A DNA stretch of 32,000 bases from Candidatus Heimdallarchaeota archaeon (GCA_030149205.1 JASBSB010000006.1:1-32000), one strand, 5' to 3'; positions 1 through 30,978 are shown, counted from the first letter of the stretch. The notes: generated by a model not told the origin, from the sequence alone. Numbers and translations: made by a program.

Positions 1-141
1 TCTGAAGCAGCGATCACGCCTCCTGCGGGATCATAAGGCTAAAAACAAGCGGAAGAGCCTGCTGTGCTCTGTGGTCTGGTACAACCACGGAATCCGAGCT
101 CAGGGGGTGATCCCAGTGTAAACGAATTTTGGGACAAGCTT
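1..141 (+). mobile_element. 3' end of an IS5-like DDE transposase and right end of the element (cut by window edge)
   Basis: Frame from nt 2 reads LKQRSRLLRDHKAKNKRKSLLCSVVWYNHGIRAQGVIPV* (stop 119-121). By hand alignment it is 95/117 nt identical to the reverse complement of 2751-2867. Putative terminal motif ttgggacaagctt at 129-141. GC-rich relative to downstream DNA. Confidence 0.8.
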
Positions 142-253: not shown

Positions 254-1402
254 GTGAACAAAATAGTAATGTTACTATTCGGTTACATGCCTAATGATAT
301 AAGAGTTAAAAAAATGGCTAGATCTATTTCATCTCTCAATTACTCTGTAGACATAATTTCACATCGCTCCAGTACAACTAAATTAGGCGAAACGATAAAA
401 ATTATTTGTCAATATAAAAGCACATCCATTCAAACGGGTTCTGAGTTGAAAATCAGTTCTCTTCTATCATTCTGGATATTTTCTATTAGCTTTATGTTTA
501 AAACATACAAAAAAAATAATCCAGATTTCATCTATGCAAATGATTTTACAACCTTGATTCCAGCTATAACAATCAAATTGATTTGGTGGAGGACTAAAAT
601 CATTTATGATTCACATGAATTAGCTCCAGAATTAAGTAATGAATACTTTGGTTTAGTTTTTGAAATTCTCACCTTTATATTAGAAGTAACATCAATCCCA
701 TTTTTACACCACATAATCTCATCTTCTCCTTACTATAGTCTGCTAATGCATAAACGATACAGTAAGAAAATCACTACAATAGTTAATCTTCCCTCTTTAA
801 CAGACATAAGAAACTCAACATCAATCAGAGGAGAAGAAATTTTAAGTAAATATATTGATAATTTCTCAAGATTTACATTATTTATCTATGCAGGCCATAT
901 TACAATTAACAGAGGTTACGAAAGACTTATTTCTGTTTGGAATAAAATAAGTGAGGATGATAATCAAAAAATTCTCTTACTCGCTGGAGATGGACCAAAA
1001 AAGAAGGAAGTTTTGGATTTAGCTGGTAAGAATAAATCCATTATATATTTGGGTTATTTAGACACTGTTGATTATTATAGCCTTCTGCGCGTTATTAATT
1101 ATGGTATATCTCTTTTAAACCCAAATAAAGGATTAAATAATTATTATGGTTTTCCCAACAAAATACCAGAATACCTCGTGTTTAATAAAAAAGTTGTTGC
1201 TACAAAAATGATAAATTTCAAAAATGAAATTAGAGAAAAAAAAATTATTGGGGTTGAATATGAATCAGAGGAAGACCTTTATAATAAAATCTTGACATTA
1301 GAGTCAAAAGCAGACTATAATAACTCAGAAGTAGATTTAAAATATGTTTGGGAAAGTCAAATGAATATATTATCCTCCGTCTTTAAGAAGAAACAATTAT
1401 AA
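254..1402 (+). CDS. Glycosyltransferase family 4 (GT-B fold)
   Basis: 382 aa, GTG start. Motifs IIYDSHE, FIYAGHI, LLLAGDGP, YLGYL, PNKIPEY; lies in a glycan cluster. Confidence 0.85.
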   Translation: MNKIVMLLFGYMPNDIRVKKMARSISSLNYSVDIISHRSSTTKLGETIKIICQYKSTSIQTGSELKISSLLSFWIFSISFMFKTYKKNNPDFIYANDFTTLIPAITIKLIWWRTKIIYDSHELAPELSNEYFGLVFEILTFILEVTSIPFLHHIISSSPYYSLLMHKRYSKKITTIVNLPSLTDIRNSTSIRGEEILSKYIDNFSRFTLFIYAGHITINRGYERLISVWNKISEDDNQKILLLAGDGPKKKEVLDLAGKNKSIIYLGYLDTVDYYSLLRVINYGISLLNPNKGLNNYYGFPNKIPEYLVFNKKVVATKMINFKNEIREKKIIGVEYESEEDLYNKILTLESKADYNNSEVDLKYVWESQMNILSSVFKKKQL

Positions 1403-1627
1403 GATAAATTAAACAAAATAATTTTCTGATGAGTTTTATTTAATATATTTGAATACACTTCTTTAAATTTTGTTTGAAATCGCGTTTTCAATTGTACCAT
1501 TAATTTTTTTTTGATCAATAATATCGTTTTAAAATATAAATATATCAAAATTTATGAGAATTATACACTTGCTCTTTCAACTTTATAAATATCGAATGTT
1601 TTATAATTATTCTTAAGATTTTAATAT

Positions 1628-2362
1628 GTGATAAAAAGTTATTTGATTATAATTAATATCGTAGTTTATGACAAAGAGGAATATTTATTAGAGGTATTAA
1701 CTAAAATTCCAAAATTTGTCGATAGAGTTAATATTATTTGGGATCAACCAGATTGTATTGAACTGGAAAAATTGAGACAATATTTCAAAAATAATAGTCG
1801 ATATTTTTTTAAAATCAAGTTGAAGAGAGATGGTATTGGTTCTGCAATACAGGATGGATTTAAACTTAGTCTAAAATTTGCCTTACAACAAAAAGCTGTT
1901 TTTATTGTTATGGCGGGTAATGGTAAAGACAATCCAATACAATCATATCGTTTAGCCAGCGAGCTGATTGATAAAGAATTATTTTATGTACAAGGTTCCA
2001 GATATTTGTTGGAGGGAGGAACAAAAACACTTCCAATAGAAAGAAAGGTTATTAATAAGACATTGTCATTTTTATGGTCAATGGTAATGAGAAAATATGT
2101 TTCTGAGGTTACAAATGGTTTCAGGGCATTCAATAAGATTATTTTTGAGAAAAATTTAGTTGACTGGAATAAACCACTGATATCTGGTTATGAATACGAG
2201 TATTATTTAAATTATAAATTAATTACAAAATATAGAGACAAGCATCTTGAAGTCCCTGTCCAAAAAATTTATCAAAATGGTCGCAAACAGTCTAAAATTA
2301 AGTTTAAAGATGGGTTACAAATACTAAAACCGTTGATTATGTGTCCATTGAATCTTTATTAA
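1628..2362 (+). CDS. Glycosyltransferase family 2 (DPM1/polyprenol-phosphate glycosyltransferase-like)
   Basis: 244 aa, GTG start. GIGSAIQDG, MAGNGKDNP (variant of the DxD region), VQGSRY, VTNGFRAF, EVPV are typical of DPM1-like GT2. Confidence 0.8.
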   Translation: MIKSYLIIINIVVYDKEEYLLEVLTKIPKFVDRVNIIWDQPDCIELEKLRQYFKNNSRYFFKIKLKRDGIGSAIQDGFKLSLKFALQQKAVFIVMAGNGKDNPIQSYRLASELIDKELFYVQGSRYLLEGGTKTLPIERKVINKTLSFLWSMVMRKYVSEVTNGFRAFNKIIFEKNLVDWNKPLISGYEYEYYLNYKLITKYRDKHLEVPVQKIYQNGRKQSKIKFKDGLQILKPLIMCPLNLY

Positions 2363-2725
2363 ACTTTCAAGAATTTTTTTAATATCCTTAATTAAAGAAT
2401 CAGATTTAAGCTTTATATTTTAAAAATTTTAGCCAAACCCCTATAAATTAACACTATACACTTTCCAAAGTAAATTAGATTTGGAATTACTAAGTTTTTG
2501 ATTCACAAGATTCCTTTTATTTTGTAAAAGGCTTATATTTAAGGGATAGAGAATATTTCTTTAAAAAATGTATTTTTGTTCTCAATAGTTCTTAAGTAGG
2601 TCATCTAGATACAAGAAGATATTTTTGAGTTCAAGTTAAATGAAACAAAATATATTTCTAAGAAGGTTGAGTAAGATATAAAGTTATCACAGAACAAGAT
2701 TAAACTAATAAGAAATAATTCAGAT

Positions 2726-3811
2726 AAACTTTTCCCAAGGTTAGAGATCGCACAGGGATCACCTCCTGAACTTTGGTTCTGAGGTTATACCAGACCACAG
2801 AGCACAGCAAGCTCTTCAGCTTGTTCTGACGCTTTTAATTCCGCAGGATGCGTGGACGTTGCTTCAGCAGACCAAACACTCGCTCAACCTCTGCCCGGAG
2901 GTAGAACCAACAGTTCTTCGCATAGATCCCACAATGCGGGCTTTGCAGACAATCCAGTCGATCCTTGGGGTGGAAGTTCGATGATCCCTGGAGTTTAATT
3001 TCCTGGGGATCACCACCTGAAGTGCCTCCTGAGCTAGCAAACGATGATGCTCTCGCCCCAGTAAGCCCTGTCAGCATGAACACGTCTCAGAGGAGATGGC
3101 AAGCGCCAATACTGCCTCTTCCAGAACCTACCAAAGGTAGTTACACCATGCTCGGCACTACTGGAGGTGTAGACACCGATGACAGCCCTGTTTGGCAGCC
3201 CCACTGGCAGGGGGAGCTTGGCAAAGAGGGGGCGCTCTTGGTGAGGATCTGTCTCTCCCCCCCCCTTGAGGAGCCTCCAGAAGCTCCCCTCTGTCAGCTC
3301 AAAGCCTGAGCTGTCTATTGCCACATCTGTGGTATTTTTAGAGAAGGCAAAGCCCAGCTGCTTGATCAGGCTCTTCAGATTCGCCTGCGAGACCCCCTCC
3401 CACCTCCCTGTGAAAGGTGAACTTACGGGTGATGTGTCTCAAAGACCCCGCTTCGATCAAGAAATCACAGAGCCTAAGCTTGGAGGGAAGATCCCTCCAA
3501 CCTATCTGTTCCTGCAAAGAGACAGATGGCGACCAGCACCCATCTGAGCCCCACTCGAGCCCTGCCTAGTTTTAAGACTCTTTTTGTGTCTGGGAACCTG
3601 GGGCGAATGAAATCTTGATTTAAGATGAAAAATTTGGACAGTACATGGAGGTCAATGATTTGTGTTTGACGCACTTGTCAGCTCTGACCCCCTCCTATAT
3701 TTCTAGTTCTCTTCTAACCGAATCTCAAGCGAGGTTCGTGTTCTTCTGAAAATCTTTCATCCATTGAGCCTGAGGGCTCAATGCTTGTCCCAGGGGTTTT
3801 GGAACGAGCTT
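2726..3811 (-). mobile_element. Decayed IS5-like insertion sequence (frameshifted transposase pseudogene), about 1.09 kb
   Basis: Minus-strand fragments in different frames carry AIDSSGF (first D), FAKL, VHADRAYW (second D), VVIPRKLN and RAEVERVFGLLK (E motif); premature TAA after RILRN. AGGAGG lies upstream of the GTG at 3674. Imperfect terminal motifs aaacttttcccaa (2726-2738) and ttggaacgagctt (3799-3811). About 50% GC by spot count in AT-rich surroundings. No target-site duplication found. Confidence 0.8.
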
Positions 3812-3853
3812 AATTTGTGTTTAAGCGGGTTTTTTAGGGATTACAATTCAAAA

Positions 3854-4777
3854 TTAATTTTTTAATTCTGAAATAGTGTCAAGTATTACTGATACAGTAT
3901 TAGTTCCAATTGATGCATTATTTATTATTGGATGGGAACCATTGAAAGAGCTGATAAAATGCTCCAATTCTGATTTGATGGTATTATTCACTTCCACTTT
4001 CAACGGTGTACCTTCTCCGTTTTCATAAATCATAATTTCTTGATCTACAGCATCAATTATAGCTGATCGTTTTGTTCCTGCAATTTCTAACCTTCGAATC
4101 TTAGGAGGGTGCAACCAACCGATTTCTATGTTAACCAGAGCTTTCCCAAGTTTACCGATAATAAAAGCATATTCCTCCTGAGTCTCCCTTGTAAAACTAT
4201 CTGCTACTGCTTTAAGGTTACTTGGCCACTTACTTGTAATGAAATTTATGATGTCGAAAATGTGAGGAAGTAAATCAAACATCACATCTCTTTGAGGAGA
4301 GACTAACATGAAGTTAGTCCATCTAAATTTGACCAAAATGAGGTTCCCAAAAAAATTTTCCTCATACAGGTGTTTAATTTTCTTTATTGAATTATTAAAA
4401 CGATAGATATGACCAACAGATAAAGTCCTTTTGTTTAGATCTGCCAATTGAGATAATTCATTACCCTCCTTGACGGTCATACAAAGAGGTTTTTCTATAA
4501 AAGTGTGTTTTCCTGCTAATAGGGCGTCTTTACCAATTTGAAAGTGAGTTTCATTTGGAGTTGCAATAATCACCCCATCAATTTCGTCCAATCCTATTAA
4601 CTCAGTGTAATTCTTAAATAACAGAACATCCGAAAAATTTCCTTTGACCCATTCTAAATTTTGATCCAAAGCATCAGAAACAGCATAAAGTGTGGCATTA
4701 TCTAACTGAGCCAGCTCACTGATATGTTTTTTTCCCCAATATCCAGCCCCTATTACACCAATATTAAATTTTTTCAT
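3854..4777 (-). CDS. Gfo/Idh/MocA family NAD-dependent oxidoreductase (WbpB/WlbA/GnnA-like sugar-nucleotide C3 dehydrogenase)
   Basis: GVIGAGYWG Rossmann motif, IATPNETH, EKPLC, VGHIYRFN, DLLPH; 2 nt downstream of a DegT aminotransferase. Confidence 0.9.
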   Translation of the reverse strand: MKKFNIGVIGAGYWGKKHISELAQLDNATLYAVSDALDQNLEWVKGNFSDVLLFKNYTELIGLDEIDGVIIATPNETHFQIGKDALLAGKHTFIEKPLCMTVKEGNELSQLADLNKRTLSVGHIYRFNNSIKKIKHLYEENFFGNLILVKFRWTNFMLVSPQRDVMFDLLPHIFDIINFITSKWPSNLKAVADSFTRETQEEYAFIIGKLGKALVNIEIGWLHPPKIRRLEIAGTKRSAIIDAVDQEIMIYENGEGTPLKVEVNNTIKSELEHFISSFNGSHPIINNASIGTNTVSVILDTISELKN

Positions 4778-4779
4778 AT

Positions 4780-5874
4780 TTATGCCTCGAAGAAATTTGT
4801 TATCGAATCAATAACCCTATTAACATCAGAACTCGTCAGTAATGGGTGCATGGGGAGACTTAAATTTGTAGCCGCCCATTCTTCGCTTATTGGAAATAAT
4901 CCATCTTTATATCCAAACAATTTCTTGTATAATGGCTGTAGGTGAACTGGTAATGGATAGTGAATACCGGTTTGTATTCCTTCTACGGATAATTTTTTTG
5001 CAAGTTGATCGCGATTTTTTGTTCTTATAGAATAGATATGGTAGACAGGGTCTGATTCTTTTGCCCATTCTGTCAACTCAAGATCATTTACATCTTTAAA
5101 TTTAGAGTTATATGTTTGAGCAATTTCATTTCTCCTAGAATTCCAAGCTTTAAGGTTCTTTAGTTGTATTCTACCAATTGCAGCACTTATTGTATTTAGA
5201 CGAGCGGTATATCCCTTCATTGTATGTACGTACTTCGAAGTCCTGCCACAATCTCGCATTTGTGAAATTTTTTTCGCTAGTTTATCATTATTTGTCGTTA
5301 CCATTCCTCCGTCTCCACCTACTGTCATATTTTTAGTTGAATAAAAAGAGAAAGCAGCTGCATCTCCAAAAGAACCTGCATTTTGTCCCTTGTAAGTTGC
5401 GCCATGTGCTTGACAAGCATCTTCAATGAGATACAGATTATTTTTTTCAGAAAATTCTTGAATTTCATCCATATGATCAACACCACCATAAAGGTGGACT
5501 GGTAAAATTGCATTAGTTTTATCTGTTAATACTTTAATAAGCTTTTTAGGATCTAGATATGAGTTTTTTCTTTTGATATCAGAAAAAATTGGCTTTGCAC
5601 CTGCATTCAGAATAGAATTAGCCGAAGCAATAAAAGTTGCTGGAGTAGTAATCACCTCTTTTGTAACTTCTAATCCCTCCCAGATCAATGACAATGCATT
5701 AGTACCTGAAGAAGTTGATATTGCATGATCAACACCAACAAATTTTGCGAATTCCTCCTCAAATCTATAAACCGATTCCCCCATTACCAACATTTCCTCA
5801 GATAAAACCCTAACAGCCTCATCCTCCATCTCATCAGTGATAATTGGCATCATCAAATTAATTTTCTCAGACAT
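4780..5874 (-). CDS. DegT/DnrJ/EryC1/StrS PLP-dependent sugar aminotransferase (WbpE/WlbC/GnnB-like)
   Basis: SSGTNAL, TFIASAN, PVHLYG, IEDACQAHGA, FSFYSTKNM (PLP lysine), GGDGG, IHYPLPVHLQP. Confidence 0.93.
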   Translation of the reverse strand: MSEKINLMMPIITDEMEDEAVRVLSEEMLVMGESVYRFEEEFAKFVGVDHAISTSSGTNALSLIWEGLEVTKEVITTPATFIASANSILNAGAKPIFSDIKRKNSYLDPKKLIKVLTDKTNAILPVHLYGGVDHMDEIQEFSEKNNLYLIEDACQAHGATYKGQNAGSFGDAAAFSFYSTKNMTVGGDGGMVTTNNDKLAKKISQMRDCGRTSKYVHTMKGYTARLNTISAAIGRIQLKNLKAWNSRRNEIAQTYNSKFKDVNDLELTEWAKESDPVYHIYSIRTKNRDQLAKKLSVEGIQTGIHYPLPVHLQPLYKKLFGYKDGLFPISEEWAATNLSLPMHPLLTSSDVNRVIDSITNFFEA

Positions 5875-6027
5875 TATATTTGATTGTTAAAATAATGATA
5901 ATTAAATGTTATATTAAGTCTTCAGAAAGACAATTGCTTGATAAGTATTCTTTGTGTTTTATTATAATTTATTGCAAATTTAACAGCCTACACAAAATAT
6001 TTAAGAAATTTTTAAGTTTTTTTTACT

Positions 6028-7034
6028 ATGTGGAGGTTGAAATCGCTCTCTAAGGGCTCATGCCTTAACTTAAGAGTTAGAAAAATGACTTCAACACTCC
6101 ACAATTTAAATGTTGATGAAAGTTTAATAACCCATAGATCATTCGTCAAATATATTAATAAAGACAATATCCCAATTATATCACAATACAAGGTATATTC
6201 AACTTCTTCTTGATCATATATAGATGAATGTTCTTTGTTTAAATACTGGTTTTTTTTGTGTATTCAACTTACAATAAGTTTGAAAATCTAATCGACCATC
6301 GATATTCTATTGTAATGATTTTACAACCTTAACACCTGCAATTCTCTTCAAGTTAATTTACTAGAGAACATAATTTATATACAATGTTCATGAATTCGTT
6401 CCTGATTTAAGGAAGGAATATTTTAATATGGGATTCATGATTCTCTTTTTTATAATTGAAAAAATTAAGAGCTATTTTTTATTTCAATAATTTCAGTTTC
6501 TCCTTTTCTAGTCAAAATACTACAAAAGTGTTATGAAAAGCCATAACCACTATTCCAAATTTTCCTTCTGAAAGAGAGTAAATTAACAGCACAGACATAA
6601 AAGGAATTTAATTGTTATCTGAATTTAAAAGAGATCCAAATAATATTTTATATACTTATGCAAGTCATAAGGCGATTAATAGAGGATAGGAAGAACTCAT
6701 ATATGCCTGGAGACGATTTTCACAAAATGAGAAGGGGTGAAAAATTTTAGTTCTAGTGAGTGATGTTCGAATAAAATCAAAAATATTAGAATTATTTAAA
6801 GGTGATCTAACTATCAAATATGTGGGATATCTTGAATCAGAAAGTTACTTTAGTTTACTAAGAGTAATTGATTGCAGATTCTCTTTAATTGACCCAAAAC
6901 AGGGGTTAAATAATTTCTTTGGAATTCCAAATAAACTAACAGAATATTTAACCTTTAGCAGATGGATAATTTCAACAGTCTTAATAGATTTTATAAATGA
7001 AATTAAAAGTGGATGTAATTTCGATAAGTTTTGA
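6028..7034 (+). pseudogene. Degraded GT4 glycosyltransferase, paralog of 254-1402
   Basis: Fragments colinear with the 254-1402 protein: NLRVRKMTSTLHNLNVDESLITHRS vs DIRVKKMARSISSLNYSVDIISHRS; IYNVHEFVPDLRKEYF vs IYDSHELAPELSNEYF; ITTIPNFPS vs ITTIVNLPS; YTYASHKAINRG*EEL vs FIYAGHITINRGYERL; YVGYLESESYFSLLRVI..GLNNFFGIPNKLTEY vs YLGYLDTVDYYSLLRVI..GLNNYYGFPNKIPEY. Stops and frameshifts between them. Confidence 0.85.
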
Positions 7035-8564
7035 ACCATTGTAATAGAAGGAACACCCGCATAAAAAATTTATAGTTTTTCTTATCAATGGACTTTTTCC
7101 GGATAATAGCTAACGTGTCAGGAGTTATAACATTAGAACATAAATATTGCTCTAACTCCAATGTTTTTCATCTAGCTCTTTCAACAATTTAAAGTCTGGT
7201 GAGGCGAAACCTATCTTATCTTTTCTTTGCTTAACTAGTTCGGGTAGATATTCATTTAATGCATCTCTAAGAATACGTTTTGTGGTTCCTTTCTTATATT
7301 TATATTCATCTGGTAATGAAAGCAGATAGACAACAAGTCTAAAGTCTAAAAAAGGAACTCTGGTTTCAATACCAAAAGTCATTGAATTTTTGTTCTCTCA
7401 ACGTAATAATTTTTCAAGTTTGTAATCTACGTTCACTATTAAAGCTGTCGTTAATGATTTCGATTTGTACATTGGAGAAAGATAAAAATTATCTTGTGAG
7501 ATGATGTTATTAAGTCTATTACTTAAATATTTTTTATTCCTGTATAAAATTTTCTTCCTTAAAAAATTGGGAGAAAAATGATAGGATAAGAGCTGTAAAC
7601 CCTCAACATTTTTTCGCTTAATTACGGTTAGCAATTCCTCAAAAAATGATTTTAAATTCAAACTCCTAAGTTGTTGATTTAAATAGTAACCGGTCATATA
7701 ATCATACCCAACAAGTAATTCATCCGCACCTTGACCATCCAATAATACCTTTAATTCATTTTCATGTGCTAATTTCATTACCAAATATTGTGTAAGTTGT
7801 GAAAATGAAATTACTGTTTCCTCCTGGTGATTTATGAAGTTATCTAAATTTTCATTCAATAATTCCATGGTCGGGTAAATAAAGGGTGAGTGAGAATTAG
7901 CCGATCTTTTAACTTCATCTAAATATCTCTTTTCATCTAATTTGAACCATTCACAATAGACTGCTGAGAAAGTTCTCATTTTCAAACTCTGTTTTTCTAA
8001 GATTTTTGAAGCTACAGTAACTATCGAAGAGGAATCTACCCCTCCGCTTAAACAAGAACCAACTAAAACATCACTTCGTAGTCTAATCTCTACACTCGAT
8101 TCGAATAAAGATCTAATTCGATCAATATGCTCATTATATGATCTCCTCTGAAAATTTAAATCGGTTTTAAGTTTTGAAACCTCTTCAGTAAGGTTAAAAA
8201 ATTTTATTTCTTAGATATCTTTCCATGAATAATTTGATTTTAGCTCTATTTTAACATAATGTGAATGTTTTAATTTTTTAATTCCTTCATTAAAAGTGTC
8301 GGGAAGATGATCTAATCGACCTAATAAGAGAATATGAGCAATTGATTTATGATTTAATTTTTGGTTTGGATCTAAACTCAAAATAGGTTTTATTTCTGAA
8401 GAGAATATGATTTTACCATTGATAACACAATAATACAATGGTTTAATACCAAATCTATCTCTTACAACAACTGAAACCTGCTGCTTTAGATCGATTAATA
8501 AAAAGGCAAACATTCCATTTAGTTCTTTAAACCAATCTTCACCAGACGTTTCATACAACCCCAT
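7003..8564 (-). pseudogene. asnB: AsnB-type (asparagine synthase-like) glutamine amidotransferase pseudogene, N-terminus missing
   Basis: ELNGMFAF and RDRFGIKPLYY (glutaminase part); VGSCLSGGVDSSSIV (PP-loop, outside the ORF track), LLDGQGADELLVGY, LLR*ENKNSMTFGIETRVPFLD. In-frame stops TAA at 8211-8213 and TGA at 7398-7400, then TAG at 7152-7154 and a frameshift near 7120. No N-terminal MCGI motif found. Confidence 0.85.
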
Positions 8565-8580
8565 CTTAAATAAATTTATT

Positions 8581-8757
8581 TTTTATTTCAAATTGATCCC
8601 TACGACTGAAGAGATTTCTACTGTGACTGTAGTTCGCTCGGGTTATATTGGATTAGCAAAAACCCTTGTGTTTGCTACCTTAGGGGTGAGGATGCATAGA
8701 TGTGACATAAGTGATACAAAGATAAGCTATTTAAAAATTAAAAATAGTCTAAAATGA
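8581..8757 (+). pseudogene. Possible remnant of a UDP-sugar 6-dehydrogenase (Ugd/WbpA family) N-terminus
   Basis: Frame reads ISTVTVVRSGYIGLAKTLVFATLGVRMHRCDISDTKISYLK*. This resembles the family pattern I-V-I-G-x-G-Y-V-G-L...FA-x-LG...D-I...K-I-x-x-L with the first Gly changed to Arg. A weak NP..LRE trace near 8985-9010 may continue it. Confidence 0.4.
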
Positions 8758-9497
8758 TAAAGAATTCCTTCAGTAATCAGAAGCTGATTCACTTATCATC
8801 TCTACCCGCAGCATGTCTCTTAGCAGAATCTCAGCTCATGAATAGGGTTGATTGACAAAAGAACCTACCAACTCTATGGATAGATTGATATGAATTATAA
8901 TAGATTGAGGCTGTTGATTCTCTTTAGAAATATTTGAAGGTTGATGAATTTTGGTGAAGTTGTAACAAACTGTCTTTTCCAAGCCAACAATCCCCCTTCG
9001 AGAAGATCCTTCACGCGATGGTTTTGAGATGGATTATTAGAGCCACAAAGCAGTTCTGAGCAGTAATAAATCTCCATATTGATCACCTGAAAGTAAAAAA
9101 CTGTTGTATTTGCTACTCATCCAAAAATCCAAACCAGCTCGATTAATTTCAAAAACGTTTTGTTGAGACCTAAAGAAATAGCAATAGAAGTAGCTCCGAG
9201 CAGAGATTAAAAGAGCTTAGATGTAATAATGCATCAGTACACTGTTTTGAGAGTCATTAGAAAAAAGAATAATTTAATGAGGATTAATATTATTTTATGC
9301 TAAATAATCAAATATAAGATCAATGACGGTTGAGTAAGCTATAAGCTAATTTGTAACCCAGTAATAAATTTGAATAAAAAGTTATAAATTAGATTGCTCG
9401 ATTTAAAAATAATAGAAAGTTAATATTACAAGTTAATCCTATTTTAAATATCATTTTACTATAGAATACTTATATTTGGATTTAATAATATATTGAT

Positions 9498-10289
9498 ATG
9501 ATAAATTCAGAAATAATATTAGGAGAATTCGGAGAAATAATACAAGGGAAAAACAACAAATTCGGTAAAAATGTAATGGTGTTAGGAAAACTTAAAATCG
9601 GAAAAAATAACCACATTGGAAATAACGTTGTTTTCTCAGGCAATGTAACAATCGGAGACGGAAATTTCATTGGAGATTTTGCGACTATTGGGTCATTACC
9701 ACACCATTCTAGAAAAAAATATGAATTTTCAAATGAATTTTTGGATGGAAGCCTATCAATTGGTGACCAAAATATTTTTAGAAATTTTATAACAATAGAT
9801 TTGCCGATAGAGACGAAAACAGAAATTAAAAACCGCAATTTTTTTATGAGTTATATTTACATTGGACATGACAGTAAAATTTTTAACGAGTGTATTCTAA
9901 GCTCACACGTAAAATTGGGAGGTTTTACTAAAATAAACTCAAGTTCTAATTTGGGAATGGGTGTTTCAGTTCATCAATTTTCAACTCTAGGTGCCTTTTC
10001 AATGATTGGAATGAATGCAACTGTAATAAAAGACCATCCACCATTTTTAGTAAGTGTTGGAACACCAGCAGTTCCAAAAAAAATTAATACATATGCACTT
10101 CAAAAAGGTGGTTTCGAGGAAAAACATATTAGATTTATAGAAAAATTCTATCGAAATTTAACTCTTGGAGGGAAATTCACATCAGAATTAGCTCATTGCC
10201 CAAAACAATTAAAACTCTTTTTTGTTGAGTTCCTAAATCAAAGAGTTGAATCTAGAGAAATGGTAGACCTATCCAACATAAACAAATAG
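9498..10289 (+). CDS. LpxA-like left-handed beta-helix acyl/acetyltransferase
   Basis: Hexapeptide repeats (IGKNNH, IGDGNF, IGDQNI). Colinear with LpxA landmarks: IGHDS (catalytic His), VHQF, KDHPPF, INTYALQKGGF and a C-terminal helical domain. Confidence 0.8.
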   Translation: MINSEIILGEFGEIIQGKNNKFGKNVMVLGKLKIGKNNHIGNNVVFSGNVTIGDGNFIGDFATIGSLPHHSRKKYEFSNEFLDGSLSIGDQNIFRNFITIDLPIETKTEIKNRNFFMSYIYIGHDSKIFNECILSSHVKLGGFTKINSSSNLGMGVSVHQFSTLGAFSMIGMNATVIKDHPPFLVSVGTPAVPKKINTYALQKGGFEEKHIRFIEKFYRNLTLGGKFTSELAHCPKQLKLFFVEFLNQRVESREMVDLSNINK

Positions 10290-10520
10290 TTTGTTGATTT
10301 AAATTATTGGAGTCTTCCATTAGAGTTTTTCAAATTAGTAATTATAAGAAAAAACGAGATTGAATAGACTGTCTTCAAAAGTACATTTGAAATAGAACCT
10401 AGGGAGTATAAAATTTAAAATTTGAAACAAAAGTAAAAAATTAGTTTTTAAACTTTTAATATAAAAAATAATACTTCTTTGAGGAAATTAATAAATCGTT
10501 TTAATTTTCAAAGCAAAAAA

Positions 10521-11648
10521 TCATTGATTTCCAATAAAATAGTCTTCTATTATACTTTTATAAACTTTTTCTGTTTTCTCCATTTCAATTTTATAATTAA
10601 ATTTTTTCAATACAAGTTCCCTGTTATTCTTTCCCATTTTTAATCCAAATTCCTTGTGATCAAGGAATTCTAAGATTCTTTCAGAAAGGGTTTTGAAATC
10701 ACCAAAACCAAATTGTAAAAAGTTCACATTAACTTTCATTCCGTTTTCTTCAGTGTCAGGATGTCCTGTGAAAATAACAGGCAACTCCATACTCATCGCC
10801 TCTAAAACACTTATTGGAACACCACCATCAGTTAAGGATGTTGACACAAAAATATCTGCTATTTTAAGGTATTTGACCATTTCCTTTTGATTAAGGTACC
10901 CCACAAAATTAACAAATTTAGTTAGATTTAACGTGTTTACTAAATTTTTTAGATTATTAAGTTCTGAACCTCGTCCAGCTAAAATAAATAAGACATTTGA
11001 TTGTTTTTTAATAACTAACGGAATTGCTTTGATTAACGTTTTCACATCGTATATATCATAAAAATTTCTGTTTGAAAAAATTATATACTTTTCTTCAGCA
11101 TTTAATATTTTCTTCAAGCTATTGTTTTTTGGGATGGGGGAAAAAATTTTAACATCAACTCCAAAGTGAGAATGAAACATTTTATCTTTTGGAGCACCTA
11201 AACTAATTAGTGCATTTCGAGTCACACCTCCAAAATATTGAAAATATTCGGATCTAGATACTGTAAATTTAGCCATCCACCTGTATAACAAATTATTACT
11301 AATTTCTTGTAAAACATCACTTCCCCATGCAGTCAATATAGTTTTGGTATAATTCCCTAAAGCTAAAAGGAAACCATATTTTATCACATAATGTGAATGA
11401 ATAATATCTGGTTTAATTTCATTTATGATACTTCTTATTTTTGATTTAAAATAAAAAATTTTTAAATATTTTGTATACTTATTACAGTTTAAAATATGGA
11501 TGTTAACTCCAGGAATTTCTTCGTAATCTGTTTGAAGAACAATTAGGTGTACTTCGTAGTGTTTCTCGACAAAGTACAAAACGAATTTTTTTGTATGTGG
11601 CATAGTAGCATCTGCCAGAAAACAAATTTTCATATTTCGAGAAAACAT
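10521..11648 (-). CDS. Glycosyltransferase family 4 (GT-B fold)
   Basis: PDIIHSHY, TAWGSDV, FSNRNFYDIYD, LAGRGSE, FVGYL, GVPISVLEAMSMELPVI. Confidence 0.92.
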   Translation of the reverse strand: MFSRNMKICFLADATMPHTKKFVLYFVEKHYEVHLIVLQTDYEEIPGVNIHILNCNKYTKYLKIFYFKSKIRSIINEIKPDIIHSHYVIKYGFLLALGNYTKTILTAWGSDVLQEISNNLLYRWMAKFTVSRSEYFQYFGGVTRNALISLGAPKDKMFHSHFGVDVKIFSPIPKNNSLKKILNAEEKYIIFSNRNFYDIYDVKTLIKAIPLVIKKQSNVLFILAGRGSELNNLKNLVNTLNLTKFVNFVGYLNQKEMVKYLKIADIFVSTSLTDGGVPISVLEAMSMELPVIFTGHPDTEENGMKVNVNFLQFGFGDFKTLSERILEFLDHKEFGLKMGKNNRELVLKKFNYKIEMEKTEKVYKSIIEDYFIGNQ

Positions 11649-11678
11649 AAAAATTTAATAAGGGTTAGGGTTTTTAAC

Positions 11679-12716
11679 TTATGGTTTAAGAATATTTTTG
11701 AGATTTTGATAAATCTGTTTTAAGTCAAGTAAGTTTTGTGGGTCATTGGAAGAGTATCTAACATTTTCAGATTTATGAAATCCAAATGGAAAATATACCT
11801 CTAGATGTTTATTTAATTCATTTGCTTTGTGAGTTAAAGGAAACAAAATTAACATCTCATTACTTTCTAAAACAAAATCTAAACTAGAATCCAAAATTAA
11901 CTCTTCATATAGTTTTTCACCAGGTTTTTTTCCAGTTAACAAAAACTCATTTTGGTCTATATTTTTGATTTTTAAATAGGAATTAGCCAAATCACCAATT
12001 TTCACAGAAGGCATTTTTAATATAAATATCTCTCCTTTATTTACTATCGTTGACGCTTTAAGTACAAGCTCTACACTTTCAGGTATAGTCATAAAAAACC
12101 TTGTCATTTTTGGGTCAGTCACTGTAATTTTTTCATTATTTTGAATCTGTTTCTCCCAAATTTCAATAACCGATCCTCTTGAGGCAATAACATTACCAAA
12201 TCGAACTATCCCAAATTTAGTTGAAATATTGAATTTTGAAGTTGCTGCTGCACTAATCAACCGTTCAGCTACAAGTTTGGTGGCACCCATTAAATTTGAT
12301 GGGTTAACAGCCTTGTCTGTTGAAATTAGAATTACCTTCTCTATTTTGTTTTTTATTGCACATTCTATAATGTTTTGAGTTCCTAAAATATTAGTTTTTA
12401 CTGCCTCAATTGGATTATATTCGCAAAGAACAACATGCTTTAAAGCTGCTGCATGAAAAATTATATCTATATTTTCTGTTAAATCCATCAACCGTTCTTT
12501 GTCTCTAATATCAGCTAAGTAATATTGGACATGAATTAGATCAGCTTTGTCTAACTCTAAAGTTTTATAAAAAATTTCAGTTTCTCTATTATCTAATATT
12601 AATAATCTCTTAATTTTAAATTTGGATATTCTGGCAGCAAGTTGATTCCCTATGCTTCCCAACCCACCAGTTATCAACACAGATTTGTTTTCAAATTCAG
12701 AACCTAGATTATCCAC
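11679..12716 (-). CDS. UDP-GlcNAc 4,6-dehydratase, CapD/PglF/WbpM type, soluble catalytic domain only
   Basis: LITGGLGSIG, FHAAALKHV, KTNILGTQN, ISTDKAVNP, MGATK (Met at the usual Tyr position), VRFGNVIASRGSV, MTRFFM, KPGEKLYEEL. Confidence 0.9.
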   Translation of the reverse strand: MDNLGSEFENKSVLITGGLGSIGNQLAARISKFKIKRLLILDNRETEIFYKTLELDKADLIHVQYYLADIRDKERLMDLTENIDIIFHAAALKHVVLCEYNPIEAVKTNILGTQNIIECAIKNKIEKVILISTDKAVNPSNLMGATKLVAERLISAAATSKFNISTKFGIVRFGNVIASRGSVIEIWEKQIQNNEKITVTDPKMTRFFMTIPESVELVLKASTIVNKGEIFILKMPSVKIGDLANSYLKIKNIDQNEFLLTGKKPGEKLYEELILDSSLDFVLESNEMLILFPLTHKANELNKHLEVYFPFGFHKSENVRYSSNDPQNLLDLKQIYQNLKNILKP

Positions 12717-12833
12717 ATTTTTTTATAAATTGTTGAAATATAGATATTTCTATACATTTTAGCAATTTTAATGAATTAGGTAGTTACCGAAATAAACACA
12801 TACGAAATTTTTTTTCCATCTTGGAATAATATT

Positions 12834-14111
12834 TTAATTATTCTTTTTAAATTTTATAAGGAAAGGATATTGTAAAATACCAGAAAGAAAAAAGTAAAGA
12901 GCTAGAATTAACAATATGTCTGAAAAACTATTGGGTCTCAAAATTAACATTAATAAGAGGAATACAATGGCTGAAACACTTTTTGAAACAGTGTCTAATA
13001 AAAATTTATCAATACCAAATGAAAACCCAGAAATTGTAACAGAAAAAATCAAGAATAATACAATTAAACTAACAACAGCTAAATTATCTAAACTTAAGAT
13101 GATTTGAAGACCAAAATATGAAATCACTTCAGAATAGATGTTGAAAAGTTTTAAAATATAAAAAAATGTTAAATCAATGATAACTAAAGGTATAAGAACC
13201 TTATAAACTAAAATTGTTAAAAATTTTTTAGGGTTTGCTATGTGCTGAGCAAAAATTAGTAGACTTGAACTCAAGTTAGAAGCAAGAAGTGATCCTAATG
13301 AAATTATTAAAACTACTAGATCAAAAACAGGTACTTTAGATTTCCCCAGAACTGATTCAATATAGAGTGCGATTAGTAAAAATAATCCTTGAAATATGAA
13401 ATCAGAAAAAAGAATGTACTTAGATCTTTTCAATAACTTATAAATTATTTTTAAATCAAATTTACCTGTTCTCAAGGCAGGTAAAATATCAAGTTTAGAT
13501 ATCAAGAAAAAAGGAATAACAATTTGGGGAATTAAATAAGAGTAATAAAATAAAGTATAATGATCAGTATTTATTGATAAAATGATAATTAAAACCCCAA
13601 GAAATCTTAAAATTCCAGTCACTGCGTTAAGAGTTGAGACATAATTGATCTGATCAAATGCTTTTAATATTGCAGAAAAATTTATCATCAAAGATTGGAG
13701 CAAAAGTGCAACACTAAATGTAATTGTCAACAAAATATTCATTTTAAAATATAAACTTACACTAGCAAGTAAAATACTTAATATTAATGAATAAGTAAAA
13801 TTAAATACAAACAAAGTTTTAACCAAATTTAGATTGAAAATTATAAAATCGGGAGTTTGATTAACCTTTTTTTCACCTGAACTGTTGAATGTTTTACCAC
13901 CTAAAATTTGCATAATAGGAGCATAAAAATCTAGATGAGAAAACACTAAAAACAAATTAAAGTAATACAAAACAATTAAAAAATTGCTGTAAATTAAAGA
14001 AGGAATAAACTGAATCATTAAAAACCTGACAATAAAAGAAAAGCCTTGCAAGGCAAAAGAACCTAAAAATAACGAGAATGAGTATTTGAATATTTTAGTC
14101 CTAAGTGACAA
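12834..14111 (-). CDS. Multi-pass membrane protein, probable oligosaccharide flippase (Wzx/MOP superfamily)
   Basis: 425 aa with about 12 hydrophobic segments, first gene of a minus-strand run of glycan genes. The call rests mainly on context and topology. Confidence 0.65.
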   Translation of the reverse strand: MSLRTKIFKYSFSLFLGSFALQGFSFIVRFLMIQFIPSLIYSNFLIVLYYFNLFLVFSHLDFYAPIMQILGGKTFNSSGEKKVNQTPDFIIFNLNLVKTLFVFNFTYSLILSILLASVSLYFKMNILLTITFSVALLLQSLMINFSAILKAFDQINYVSTLNAVTGILRFLGVLIIILSINTDHYTLFYYSYLIPQIVIPFFLISKLDILPALRTGKFDLKIIYKLLKRSKYILFSDFIFQGLFLLIALYIESVLGKSKVPVFDLVVLIISLGSLLASNLSSSLLIFAQHIANPKKFLTILVYKVLIPLVIIDLTFFYILKLFNIYSEVISYFGLQIILSLDNLAVVSLIVLFLIFSVTISGFSFGIDKFLLDTVSKSVSAIVFLLLMLILRPNSFSDILLILALYFFLSGILQYPFLIKFKKNN

Positions 14112-30285: not shown

Positions 30286-30978
30286 TCAGGAACTGGTAGG
30301 GATGACTCTAAATACCTTATGATCTTTGTGATATCTATCGATACTAACAGATTTAGAAACTGTAAAGTCCTTGGATTCTAGTATCCGACTCTGTTCCCTG
30401 AAAATCTGTTCTGGGGATTTTGTTTGTGATATTGACTTAGATTTTATGGCAATTAATCCCTCACCCTCCAGTAAAAAGGCATTTAAGTTTCTTACAAAAA
30501 GTTCGGCTTGGTTGGGTTGAGCCACATCACAGAATACAAAATCCACGCAATCCACCAATTCTGTGTACTCTTCGGGATATCTAGCATCCCGATGAAGTGG
30601 GATAATGTTTTCTCTTCTGATAGATAGATTCAAAAGGTCTCTCATAGGAATTGGAGCAAATTCAATTGCGAAAACGATTCCTTCTGTTACAATATCACTG
30701 ATGTGAGATACGGTTGTCCCAGAGGATGCGCCAAGATACAACACCTTAGAGTTTCTCTTAAGATTATCAATCGTCATATTTTGGAGAATACTGGCTGCTA
30801 CCTTAGATCTTTTGAATGAAAATTCACGAAGCTCTCCAAATTCTGTTTGAAATAATCGCTCTCCATATACAGAGGTACCTTTAATCATATTCTGAGTTGC
30901 CAATCTGACACCCAATATTCCTTCAACGGTATAAAGTCCAGCAATTTTTGGGTGTGGTTTAAATCTTTCTTCCATCAT
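30286..30978 (-). CDS. flpA: Fibrillarin-like rRNA/tRNA 2'-O-methyltransferase
   Basis: SVYGE, RSKVAA, VLYLGASSGTTVSHISD, FAIEFAP, DARYP, DVAQPNQA, IKSKSI, YHKDH. Confidence 0.97.
   Translation of the reverse strand: MMEERFKPHPKIAGLYTVEGILGVRLATQNMIKGTSVYGERLFQTEFGELREFSFKRSKVAASILQNMTIDNLKRNSKVLYLGASSGTTVSHISDIVTEGIVFAIEFAPIPMRDLLNLSIRRENIIPLHRDARYPEEYTELVDCVDFVFCDVAQPNQAELFVRNLNAFLLEGEGLIAIKSKSISQTKSPEQIFREQSRILESKDFTVSKSVSIDRYHKDHKVFRVIPTSS

What the first reader, a model, noticed from the sequence alone, without database searches (positions are those of the whole stretch)
3854..10289. gnnA/gnnB/lpxA-like trio in an archaeal glycan locus: candidate pathway for an N-acylated 2,3-diamino sugar
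Seen: a Gfo/Idh/MocA dehydrogenase and DegT aminotransferase (2 nt apart) share a locus with a protein colinear with full-length LpxA, including the C-terminal helical domain that short WbpD/PglD-type acetyltransferases lack. It keeps the catalytic His (H124, E. coli H125), the HQ pair and the Asn of the N..GL.RRGF region. By my recalled alignment, E. coli H99, H122 and H144 read D, Y and F here, and Met172 sits at the G173 'hydrocarbon ruler' position, as in short-chain P. aeruginosa LpxA. Established: GnnA and GnnB (the same two families) make UDP-GlcNAc3N, which LpxA N-acylates in Acidithiobacillus and Leptospira. WbpB/E/D use the same chemistry for diacetamido uronic acids, known from methanococcal N-glycans. 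Archaea do not make lipid A. Inference: an LpxA-derived enzyme has been co-opted to put an acetyl or short acyl group on a C3-amino sugar of an archaeal surface glycan, possibly from acyl-CoA rather than acyl-ACP.
Basis: partly seen in the sequence, partly recalled or inferred. Interest (0 to 1): 0.72.

Follow-up and report, generated by a model that had tools for sequence, protein, structure and literature searches.

The report
LpxA-like amino-sugar N-acyltransferase, archaeal glycan island
An archaeon that cannot make lipid A carries, in a decaying and mobile surface-sugar gene island, a full-length look-alike of the lipid A enzyme LpxA. It lies near the two enzymes that make a 3-amino sugar, so it most likely acylates that amino group on a glycan building block; this is a sound but fairly ordinary new member of a known pathway type.

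Summary
Gfo/Idh/MocA (3854-4777, -) and DegT (4780-5874, -) lie 2 nt apart. The protein at 9498-10289 (+) matches LpxA over its whole length, C-terminal helical domain included, and all residue calls against E. coli LpxA hold.

It is not a canonical LpxA. It scores 145-151 bits against cut-offs of 226-231. The genome has no LpxC, LpxB or free ACP.

Its relatives are non-canonical LpxA-like proteins, mostly bacterial. DegT lies within about 5 kb in 11 of 12 loci inspected (window included), and a Gfo+DegT pair in 7. A same-family archaeal genome has Gfo | LpxA-like | DegT packed tightly.

The nearest characterised enzyme is Pcryo_0615 (PDB 8E62), an LpxA-type N-acetyltransferase that makes UDP-GlcNAc3NAcA. 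The dehydrogenase is GnnA-like. The aminotransferase's nearest solved relatives are C3 aminotransferases.

Best reading (about 0.6): UDP-GlcNAc is converted to UDP-GlcNAc3N and then N-acylated by the LpxA-like enzyme, from an acyl-CoA, for a surface glycan. The acyl group is unknown (acetyl or a short hydroxyacyl).

Caveats: the genes are 3.6 kb apart, a dead asparagine-synthase gene lies between them, an IS copy abuts the locus, and the tree does not resolve where the protein sits.

This scan has already reported the same module type on other DNA (a DPANN archaeon and Actinobacteria).

The parts
3854..4777 (-). GnnA-like Gfo/Idh/MocA sugar-nucleotide 3-dehydrogenase (307 aa)
   Evidence: Pfam GFO_IDH_MocA plus C3 domain. 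Best NCBIfam match is NF040723, archaeal UDP-GlcNAc 3-dehydrogenase, full length at 169 bits but below the 450 cut-off. Best PDB match is 7bvj, which is GnnA according to the preprint read. It is the best NF040723 match in the genome and the only one next to a DegT gene.
4780..5874 (-). DegT-family PLP aminotransferase, probably C3-directed (364 aa), 2 nt upstream of the dehydrogenase
   Evidence: Pfam 382 bits. PDB ranking: 7b0d, QdtB, DesV, 7n63, 3uwc, WlaRG, with WbpE 195 bits above PseC 151 and PglE 104. Its active-site stretch FSFYSTKNMTVGGDGG has the same form as other Gfo-linked DegTs.
7152..8564 (-). Dead asparagine-synthase-type amidotransferase (AsnB/WbpS-like) pseudogene
   Evidence: 35% identical to residues 100-541 of the intact 603-aa Asn synthase of the DPANN locus L011. 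It has in-frame stops at TAA 8211-8213 and TGA 7398-7400, and the first ~100 residues, which hold the amidotransferase nucleophile, are replaced by stop-ridden sequence. Pfam fragments: GATase_7 and Asn_synthase.
9498..10289 (+). Full-length non-canonical LpxA-like acyltransferase (263 aa), proposed amino-sugar N-acyltransferase
   Evidence: It keeps all invariant residues of its relatives (H124, D125, H159 and others).
10521..11648 (-). GT4 glycosyltransferase, convergent with the LpxA-like gene
   Evidence: Pfam Glycos_transf_1 plus Glyco_trans_4_2.
11679..12716 (-). PseB/FnlA-like UDP-GlcNAc 4,6-dehydratase (345 aa)
   Evidence: Pfam Polysacc_synt_2 330 bits. NCBIfam PseB 279 bits against a cut-off of 408, and FnlA 216.
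12834..14111 (-). Polytopic membrane protein (425 aa), possible flippase or polymerase; last gene of the low-GC island
   Evidence: No Pfam or NCBIfam hit. About 10-12 hydrophobic segments. GC 24.7% against 49% for the next gene.
254..2362 (+). GT4 (254-1402) and a weak GT2/polyprenyl-phosphate-sugar-synthase-like gene (1628-2362), lying between two IS copies
   Evidence: Inverted repeat 2-118 / 2751-2867.
2722..3812 (-). Degenerate copy of a DDE-transposase IS element abutting the 3' end of the dehydrogenase gene
   Evidence: 83-86% identical to copies at many contig ends. The intact 264-aa transposase of contig C3 (Pfam DDE_Tnp_1) maps here in three different frames. GC 51.5%.

Best explanation
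The three genes encode a short route to an N-acylated 2,3-diamino sugar nucleotide for a surface glycan, not for lipid A. Step 1: the GnnA-like dehydrogenase oxidises C3 of UDP-GlcNAc, using NAD+ (inferred from homology). Step 2: the DegT enzyme transaminates the 3-keto sugar to UDP-GlcNAc3N, using PLP and glutamate (inferred from homology, gene coupling and the active-site stretch). Step 3: the LpxA-like trimeric beta-helix enzyme uses its conserved His124/Asp125 pair to transfer an acyl group to the 3-amino group (inferred from fold, conserved residues and recurring gene neighbourhoods). The donor is probably an acyl-CoA, because the genome has no free ACP. The acyl group is acetyl or a short (hydroxy)acyl group. 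The neighbouring GT4 enzymes and the polytopic membrane protein would then use the product. The genes sit in a low-GC, IS-flanked, partly decayed island that was probably acquired horizontally.
For: The LpxA fold and catalytic pair are kept. The protein falls below the LpxA equivalog cut-offs (151 against 226 and 145 against 231). The genome (93.5% complete) has no LpxC, no LpxB and no free ACP. Among 12 loci of relatives, window included, DegT lies within about 5 kb in 11 and a Gfo+DegT pair in 7. One relative sits beside FdtA+DegT, another C3-amino route. A same-family archaeal genome, G009, has Gfo | LpxA-like | DegT within 3 kb. The nearest characterised enzyme is Pcryo_0615 (8E62), whose PDB title calls it an N-acetyltransferase needed to make the 2,3-diacetamido sugar; it matches at E 1.5e-18, with 31-34% identity in the structural alignment against 19-26% for the LpxA structures. 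The best structure match of the dehydrogenase is GnnA (7bvj) and its best family match is the archaeal UDP-GlcNAc 3-dehydrogenase. The DegT is nearest to C3 aminotransferases. No other beta-helix acyltransferase lies in the island. This is the only adjacent Gfo/DegT pair in the genome.
Against: The LpxA-like gene is 3.6 kb from the pair, on the other strand, and not in the same operon. The region between them holds a dead Asn-synthase gene and 2.2 kb with no recognisable gene, so the island is decaying and the pathway may be incomplete. The window's Gfo and DegT are most similar to the second pair of the DPANN locus, which has its own short WbpD-like acetyltransferase. The LpxA UDP-GlcNAc-contacting residues H122, H144 and R205 are replaced. 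The tree does not resolve the protein's position, and a position as sister to canonical LpxA is not rejected (p-AU 0.51). There are no expression or biochemical data. The island also holds a PseB-like dehydratase that could feed a C4 route.
Confidence: 0.6

Rival explanations
1. C4 route. The PseB/FnlA-like 4,6-dehydratase makes UDP-4-keto-6-deoxy-HexNAc, the DegT enzyme aminates C4, and the LpxA-like enzyme N-acylates the 4-amino-4,6-dideoxy sugar (bacillosamine- or pseudaminic-acid-type chemistry).
For: A PseB-like dehydratase lies in the same island (279 bits). The best NCBIfam model for the DegT is PseC (264 bits). Some relatives' loci also hold DegT+dehydratase pairs.
Against: The PseC score is far below its cut-off of 423.5. 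Among solved structures PseC (151 bits) and PglE (104) rank well below QdtB, DesV, WlaRG and WbpE. The DegT active-site stretch differs from the two dehydratase-linked DegTs examined. DegT is coupled to the Gfo gene by a 2-nt gap, and Gfo has no role in this route.
Confidence: 0.1
2. Relic. The island is degenerating and the LpxA-like gene, or the whole pathway, no longer contributes to the cell surface.
For: The Asn-synthase gene is dead, an IS copy is frameshifted, there is 2.2 kb of gene-free low-GC DNA, and the locus sits at a contig end made of IS copies. The gene was not found in three same-genus genomes.
Against: The Gfo, DegT, LpxA-like, GT4 and dehydratase ORFs are all intact and full length. 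The LpxA-like protein keeps every invariant residue of its relatives and folds with pLDDT 94.5.
Confidence: 0.12
3. O-acyltransferase. The enzyme keeps LpxA's own chemistry and esterifies a sugar hydroxyl (for example the 3-OH of UDP-GlcNAc or another glycan sugar), independently of Gfo/DegT.
For: Whole-length LpxA fold with the same His/Asp pair. The gene is not in one operon with Gfo/DegT. One relative (P0056) has no DegT nearby.
Against: DegT lies near 11 of the 12 relatives inspected. The nearest characterised enzyme is an N-acetyltransferase.
Confidence: 0.08
4. Lipid-A-like glycolipid. The enzyme transfers a medium or long (R)-3-hydroxyacyl chain from a carrier domain, for example the genome's four-ACP megasynthase, making an acylated diamino-sugar lipid.
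For: The C-terminal domain, which I recall (untested here) contributes to ACP binding in LpxA, is retained. The genome has a 3309-aa frame with four ACP domains. In Amycolatopsis a relative sits with an ACP-like 79-aa protein, a FabG-like reductase, an AMP ligase and LuxE/LuxC.
Against: No LpxC, LpxB or free ACP was found. No FabG, ACP or ligase gene lies in this island. Met172 sits at the chain-length 'ruler' position as in the C10 enzyme of P. aeruginosa. The gene is sporadic in the phylum, whereas earlier scan notes, which I did not check, call the megasynthase order-wide.
Confidence: 0.05

Closest known systems
Pcryo_0615 of Psychrobacter cryohalolentis K5 (PDB 8E62). Per the PDB title it is an N-acetyltransferase required to produce the 2,3-diacetamido-2,3-dideoxy sugar. 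Paper: Hofmeister et al. 2023, Protein Sci 32, doi 10.1002/pro.4502, cited as ref. 30 of PMC10622841; the paper itself was not readable here.
   Same: It is an LpxA-type beta-helix that its depositors named 'UDP-N-acetylglucosamine acyltransferase'. It is the nearest non-LpxA structure (E 1.5e-18; a profile of the window protein's relatives scores it at 161 bits; 31-34% identity in structural alignment). It finishes a 3-dehydrogenase/3-aminotransferase pathway. The aminotransferase structures 8e75/8e77 also match the window's DegT (192 bits); they may be the partner enzyme from the same organism, but I did not verify this.
   Different: It is only 189 aa and lacks most of the C-terminal helical domain. 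It comes from a bacterial O-antigen context, and its substrate is the uronic acid form. The donor and acyl group of the window protein are unknown.
GnnA/GnnB plus a UDP-GlcNAc3N-selective LpxA (Acidithiobacillus ferrooxidans; Leptospira interrogans LpxA, PDB 3HSQ)
   Same: The same three enzyme families and the same proposed chemistry, N-acylation at C3 of UDP-GlcNAc3N. Whole-length fold match (TM 0.82 to 3hsq). GnnA (7bvj) is the best structure match of the dehydrogenase.
   Different: The window protein is below the LpxA equivalog cut-offs and lies outside the canonical LpxA clade (support 100/99), although a sister position is not rejected. The genome has no LpxC, LpxB or ACP. The setting is a glycan island. 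H99, H122, H144 and R205 are replaced.
WbpB/WbpE/WbpD (P. aeruginosa), WlbA/C/B (Bordetella), and MMP0352/0351/0350 of Methanococcus maripaludis (the last from my own knowledge of Namboori and Graham 2008)
   Same: Same pathway logic, with an archaeal precedent. The dehydrogenase's best family match is the archaeal UDP-GlcNAc 3-dehydrogenase model built on that system.
   Different: Their acetyltransferase is a short WbpD/WlbB-type beta-helix; WlbB (3mqg) scores only 28 bits against the window protein. WbpB-type dehydrogenase structures are not among the matches listed.
QdtA/B/C and FdtA/B/C routes to dTDP-3-acetamido-3,6-dideoxyhexoses
   Same: These also N-acylate a C3 amino sugar. QdtB is among the closest solved relatives of the DegT (265 bits). 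One relative of the LpxA-like protein sits next to FdtA+DegT.
   Different: They need a dTDP-glucose 4,6-dehydratase and a 3,4-ketoisomerase, which are absent here. QdtC matches the relatives' profile only weakly (61 bits).

Membership tests
Canonical LpxA (acyl-ACP--UDP-GlcNAc O-acyltransferase; NCBIfam TIGR01852 / NF003657) | Score at or above the curated equivalog cut-off | tested here: not met
   144.6 bits against 231.05, and 150.7 against 226 (the same result in the whole-genome scan).
Canonical LpxA | Left-handed beta-helix followed by the C-terminal helical domain (Pfam Acetyltransf_11) | tested here: met
   PF13720 scores 29 bits against a cut-off of 24.5. The AF2 model has pLDDT 94.5 with helices at 198-248. 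TM is about 0.8 to 30 LpxA chains over about 260 columns.
Canonical LpxA | Catalytic His125/Asp126 and the His160-Gln161 pair | tested here: met
   H124-D125 and H159-Q160. H124, D125 and H159 are invariant among 27 relatives.
Canonical LpxA | Substrate-contact residues H99, H122, H144, R204 and R205 (importance recalled from the LpxA literature, not checked here) | tested here: not met
   They read D101, Y121, F143, K203 and G204.
Canonical LpxA | Genome encodes the rest of the lipid A (Raetz) pathway and an acyl carrier protein | tested here: not met
   No LpxC and no LpxB. There is no free ACP; the only PP-binding domains are four inside one 3309-aa frame. The genome is 93.5% complete. LpxD, LpxH and LpxK were not searched separately.
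Canonical LpxA | Branches inside the canonical LpxA clade | tested here: inconclusive
   In the careful ML tree the 17 canonical rows, with E. coli LpxA, form a clade with support 100/99 that excludes the window protein. The AU test does not reject a tree holding it together with that clade (p 0.51). An earlier quick tree was not optimal.
LpxA-type amino-sugar N-acyltransferases (type: Pcryo_0615, PDB 8E62) | Closer to 8E62 and LpxA than to the WbpD/PglD/QdtC classes | tested here: met
   Single sequence: 8e62 scores 70.8 bits, against WlbB 28, PerB 26 and PglB 20. Profile of relatives: 8e62 scores 161, against WlbB 64, QdtC 61 and PglB 53.
LpxA-type amino-sugar N-acyltransferases (type: Pcryo_0615, PDB 8E62) | Encoded with a sugar 3-dehydrogenase and a 3-aminotransferase | tested here: met
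   Both lie in the same island here, 3.6 kb away. They are adjacent or nearly so in 6 other loci and in the same-family genome G009.
LpxA-type amino-sugar N-acyltransferases (type: Pcryo_0615, PDB 8E62) | Transfers acetyl from acetyl-CoA to the 3-amino group of UDP-GlcNAc3N(A) | not testable with these tools
   This needs an enzyme assay.
WbpD/WlbB/PglD-type sugar N-acetyltransferases | Best matches are to this class; short protein (about 190-220 aa) without the LpxA C-terminal domain | tested here: not met
   NeuD/PglB/VioB family TIGR03570 scores 80 bits against a cut-off of 160.8. The protein is 263 aa and has the Acetyltransf_11 domain.
GnnA / archaeal UDP-GlcNAc 3-dehydrogenase (NF040723) | Score above the equivalog cut-off | tested here: not met
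   168.8 bits against 450, although the match is full length (5-304 to 2-300 of 302) and is the best family. The best PDB match is GnnA 7bvj, E 1.7e-19.
C3 nucleotide-sugar aminotransferases (WbpE/GnnB/QdtB/DesV) | C3 rather than C4 regiospecificity | tested here: inconclusive
   The closest solved relatives include the known C3 enzymes QdtB, DesV and WlaRG. The active-site stretch matches other Gfo-linked DegTs. The published discriminating weight matrix was not available to run.

The most novel reading that the evidence does not exclude
The enzyme does not transfer acetyl. It transfers a (R)-3-hydroxyacyl chain (C4 to about C10), taken from CoA or from the genome's unusual four-ACP megasynthase, onto UDP-GlcNAc3N. 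This archaeon, which earlier scan notes assign to the Asgard group, would then make a hydroxyacylated diamino sugar, that is, the first committed chemistry of GlcN3N-type lipid A working outside bacteria. This would extend what the FabG-, thiolase- and ACP-linked relatives in bacteria and DPANN suggest.
Probability: 0.1. Interest if true: 0.8.

Novelty: new member of a known kind. Interest (0 to 1): 0.38.

Why it matters
Annotation pipelines name these proteins 'acyl-ACP--UDP-GlcNAc O-acyltransferase' (source names; Atlas cluster names). That wrongly implies lipid A synthesis in archaea and Gram-positive bacteria. The results here argue that an LpxA fold with its C-terminal domain is not a marker of lipid A, and that a sizeable, biochemically untested set of LpxA relatives works on amino sugars of surface glycans. 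For archaea of this group, whose cell-surface glycans are essentially undescribed as far as I know, the locus gives a concrete three-enzyme pathway to assay. In other loci, relatives sit next to thiolase, FabG-like, ACP and ligase genes. These are good candidates for the enzymes that put 3-hydroxybutyryl-type groups on sugars, which would be of wider interest than this stripped-down copy.

Tried and rejected
1. The search for related loci on named genomes failed twice, because no stretch of the alignment was conserved enough. I therefore have no named taxonomic survey of the relatives. Taxa come only from source names and Atlas clusters.

2. Literature: eight full-text searches found no paper in the held library that describes non-canonical LpxA-like sugar N-acyltransferases. 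The Pcryo_0615 paper (PMC9794024) is not held, so its kinetics, donor and catalytic residues were not read.

3. The quick tree showed a starred 53-row clade holding the window protein. I withdraw that as evidence, because a constrained search found a better tree. In a careful tree the protein's position is unresolved.

4. I looked for remnants of the FabG-like, ACP, AMP-ligase or short hexapeptide genes of related loci in the gene-free stretches 5875-7151, 8565-9497 and 10290-10520. There was nothing above noise.

5. I tested whether the 425-aa membrane protein matches the 422-aa ceramidase-like protein of the DPANN locus. It does not.

6. I considered recoding for the broken Asn-synthase gene and rejected it: the stops are of mixed types (TAA, TGA) and the N-terminal part is destroyed.

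7. My first guess of a Nitrososphaerales genome, from size and GC, was dropped. Earlier scan notes call it a Heimdall-group Asgard archaeon, and a ribophorin-I-like protein on contig C12 fits that. I did not verify the taxonomy further.

8. No complex prediction, read mapping or RNA evidence was attempted.

Full report
WHAT IS THERE. The window is the first 32 kb of a 669-kb contig of a 3.3-Mb genome that is 93.5% complete. It is archaeal: fibrillarin and Nop5 lie at 30286-31943, and the nearest Atlas clusters of Nop5 are all archaeal. Earlier notes of this scan call the genome a Heimdall-group Asgard archaeon. I did not verify that, although a ribophorin-I-like protein on contig C12 fits it.

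Positions 254-14111 form a glycan island of low GC (25-35%, against 38-49% for the flanking genes). In order, it holds:
- a GT4 glycosyltransferase and a weak GT2-like gene;
- a frameshifted IS copy (2722-3812);
- Gfo/Idh/MocA (3854-4777, -);
- DegT (4780-5874, -), 2 nt upstream of Gfo;
- 1.3 kb without genes;
- a dead asparagine-synthase-type gene (7152-8564, -);
- 0.9 kb without genes;
- the LpxA-like gene (9498-10289, +);
- a GT4 (10521-11648, -);
- a PseB/FnlA-like dehydratase (11679-12716, -);
- a polytopic membrane protein (12834-14111, -).
These assignments rest.

The 263-aa protein carries Hexapep repeats and the LpxA-specific C-terminal domain (PF13720, 29 bits against 24.5). Its 18 best PDB sequence matches are LpxA. 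Its AlphaFold2 model (pLDDT 94.5) superposes on 30 LpxA chains at TM about 0.8 over the whole length. H124/D125 match the catalytic H125/D126, and H159-Q160 and N197 are kept. H99, H122 and H144 read D, Y and F. Met172 sits at the G173 'ruler' position. In addition R204/R205 read K/G.

IT IS NOT A CANONICAL LpxA. It scores 145-151 bits against the two LpxA equivalog models, whose cut-offs are 231 and 226. The genome has no LpxC and no LpxB. It has no free carrier protein; the only PP-binding domains are four in one 3309-aa frame on contig C7.

An exhaustive search found no relative above 45% identity, and 27 relatives at E<=1e-30. In a careful ML tree the canonical LpxA rows, with E. coli LpxA, form a clade with support 100/99 that excludes the window protein. 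Its own long branch is not placed, however. The AU test does not reject holding it together with that clade (p 0.51), and an earlier quick tree proved suboptimal. So the tree says 'outside canonical LpxA, position otherwise open'. I do not lean on it.

WHAT ITS RELATIVES SIT NEXT TO. I inspected 11 loci of relatives plus the window. A DegT gene lies within about 5 kb in 11 of the 12, and a Gfo/Idh/MocA+DegT pair in 7: the window, the DPANN locus L011/L012, Amycolatopsis L014, L015, a JGI contig, L016 and an NCBI contig.
- One relative lies directly after FdtA+DegT, which is the other known route to a C3 amino sugar.
- A FabG-like short-chain reductase is adjacent in five loci.
- In one locus that reductase is joined by a thiolase.
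- In Amycolatopsis it is joined by a 79-aa protein with an ACP-like Asp-Ser motif, an AMP ligase and LuxE/LuxC.
- An intact Asn synthase is present in two loci, which mirrors the dead copy in the window.

Within the window's own phylum only about 4 of 400 genomes have a full-length member, and none of the three same-genus genomes searched does. Of the other members, G009 (same family) has Gfo(-) | LpxA-like(+) | DegT(-) within 3 kb. G060 has the LpxA-like gene with a GT2, a Gfo gene and an LPG_synthase_TM gene. The recurring link to a C3-amination pair is therefore the strongest functional evidence, and it makes up for the loose arrangement in this window.

NEAREST CHARACTERISED ENZYME. After the LpxA structures, the next structural matches are the chains of 8E62. 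This is Pcryo_0615 of Psychrobacter cryohalolentis, which its PDB title describes as an N-acetyltransferase required to produce the 2,3-diacetamido-2,3-dideoxy sugar. Identity in the structural alignments is 31-34%, against 19-26% for LpxA. The sequence match is E 1.5e-18. A profile of the relatives scores it at 161 bits, against 64 for WlbB, 61 for QdtC and 53 for PglB. So an LpxA-type beta-helix that N-acetylates a 3-amino sugar nucleotide is already known in bacteria. The window protein differs in keeping the full C-terminal helical domain.

THE TWO UPSTREAM ENZYMES. The dehydrogenase's best family is the archaeal UDP-GlcNAc 3-dehydrogenase model (full length, 169 bits, below the cut-off of 450). 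Its best structure match is 7bvj, which a preprint identifies as GnnA.

The aminotransferase's best solved relatives include QdtB, DesV and WlaRG. These are C3 enzymes according to the preprint read. WbpE (195 bits) ranks above PseC (151) and PglE (104). Around the Schiff-base lysine, the window's DegT and four other Gfo-linked DegTs share a one-residue-longer form ending in GDGG, while two dehydratase-linked DegTs have the ...GITA-GEGG form. Three other DegTs, two of them Gfo-linked and one adjacent to an LpxA-like gene, have the shorter EGG-type form, so this is a lead and not a rule. The pair in the window is the only adjacent Gfo/DegT pair in the genome.

MECHANISM PROPOSED. UDP-GlcNAc is oxidised at C3, transaminated to UDP-GlcNAc3N, and N-acylated by the LpxA-like trimer through His124/Asp125. 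The product is then passed to the glycosyltransferases of the island. All steps are inferred; none is shown.

The donor is probably an acyl-CoA, since the genome has no free ACP. The acyl group is open. Three points favour acetyl: there is no other acyltransferase in the island, no FabG, thiolase or ACP gene in it, and the 8E62 precedent. Two points leave a short hydroxyacyl group possible: the neighbours of relatives in other loci, and Met at the ruler position. My rough odds are acetyl 0.45, C3-C6 (hydroxy)acyl 0.35, longer 0.1 and other 0.1.

CAVEATS. The island is decaying. The Asn-synthase gene has two in-frame stops of different kinds and has lost its N-terminal part. An IS copy with a frameshifted transposase abuts the dehydrogenase gene. 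The contig itself starts inside another IS copy. The window's Gfo and DegT resemble most the second pair of the DPANN locus, which has its own short acetyltransferase. The rival readings are listed separately: a C4 route through the PseB-like dehydratase, a relic, O-acylation, and a lipid-like product.

RELATION TO EARLIER SCAN NOTES. I reached the LpxA-like, DegT/Gfo and 8E62 reading from my own searches and then found that this scan had reported the same module type before. One report is on a DPANN archaeon (e1-4815441), likely the same kind of locus as my L011/L012. The other is on an actinobacterial contig (e1-4689292). Both name 8E62 as the closest known enzyme. This window adds an instance in a different archaeal lineage, in a stripped-down and partly degraded form.

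VERDICT. This is a new member of a known kind: a beta-helix N-acyltransferase that completes a 3-dehydrogenase/3-aminotransferase amino-sugar pathway, drawn from the LpxA lineage as in Pcryo_0615. It is not lipid A chemistry in an archaeon. Interest is moderate.

Noticed in passing
window 1-141 and 2722-3812; also the ends of contigs C1, C3, C5, C7, C8, C9, C10, C12 and C2:668832-669118: An IS element of about 1.1 kb (GC about 51-58% in a genome of about 35% GC) has at least 10 copies and ends most contigs, so it is what breaks the assembly. The copy in the window has its DDE transposase split over three frames. An intact 264-aa transposase lies at C3:128-922. The two glycosyltransferase genes at 254-2362 lie between two copies (inverted repeat 2-118 / 2751-2867).
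   Followed up: partly
L033 = G000:C3:1-5424 (whole contig): This 5.4-kb contig is bounded by the same IS at both ends. It carries a UDP-sugar 6-dehydrogenase (2871-4058), a UDP-GlcNAc 2-epimerase (4110-5192) and an unknown 596-aa protein, all at 26-32% GC like the island. The orientation of its right-hand IS end is compatible with a join to the start of the window. If so, the island would hold all five enzyme types of the UDP-ManNAc3NAcA route. Several other contigs have the same kind of end, so the join is unproven.
   Followed up: partly
window 7152-9100 (-): An asparagine-synthase-type amidotransferase pseudogene has in-frame stops at TAA 8211-8213 and TGA 7398-7400, and its N-terminal ~100 codons are lost. 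The intact counterpart is present in two related loci (L011, L016).
   Followed up: yes
G000:C7:178125-179309 (-): Four tandem acyl-carrier (PP-binding) domains lie inside one 3309-aa open frame. These are the only carrier domains found in the genome. Earlier scan notes (e1-5423540, e1-5423541) describe this as a fatty-acid/polyketide megasynthase.
   Followed up: no
L014:10001-15391 (Amycolatopsis record GCA_042647885.1): An LpxA-like gene is followed by a 79-aa ACP-like protein (Asp-Ser motif), a FabG-like reductase, an AMP ligase, LuxE and LuxC, and is divergent from Gfo+DegT. From memory, this resembles the carrier-protein-based acyl group assembly of the Vibrio cholerae O1 tetronate (RfbK-O) genes. 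It is a candidate pathway for an unusual N-acyl sugar in a Gram-positive bacterium.
   Followed up: partly
ENA contig of P0197 (no DNA held): An LpxA-like gene lies near a thiolase plus a FabG-like reductase (the enzyme pair that makes 3-hydroxybutyryl-CoA), two B12/radical-SAM genes and a DegT gene. This points to N-3-hydroxybutyrylation of an amino sugar in that organism.
   Followed up: no
L034:4096-6141 (-) = G000:C12:46095-48140: A 681-aa protein has a ribophorin-I match (PF04597, 29 bits) and lies next to a 187-aa hexapeptide transferase. From my own knowledge, ribophorin-I homologues are a eukaryote-like feature reported from Asgard archaea, which fits the taxonomy given in earlier notes.
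   Followed up: no
Atlas cluster at rank 35: A cluster of 242-aa hexapeptide proteins from giant viruses (Nucleocytoviricota) is among the nearest feature-space neighbours of the LpxA-like protein.
   Followed up: no
L030:7094-10807 (G060:C40): In a same-class archaeal genome a 232-aa LpxA-like gene is followed by a GT2 gene, with a Gfo/Idh/MocA gene and an LPG_synthase_TM (flippase-like) gene on the opposite strand just downstream. No DegT was found within 17 kb. LPG_synthase_TM genes also lie near the relatives in L013 and L014.
   Followed up: partly
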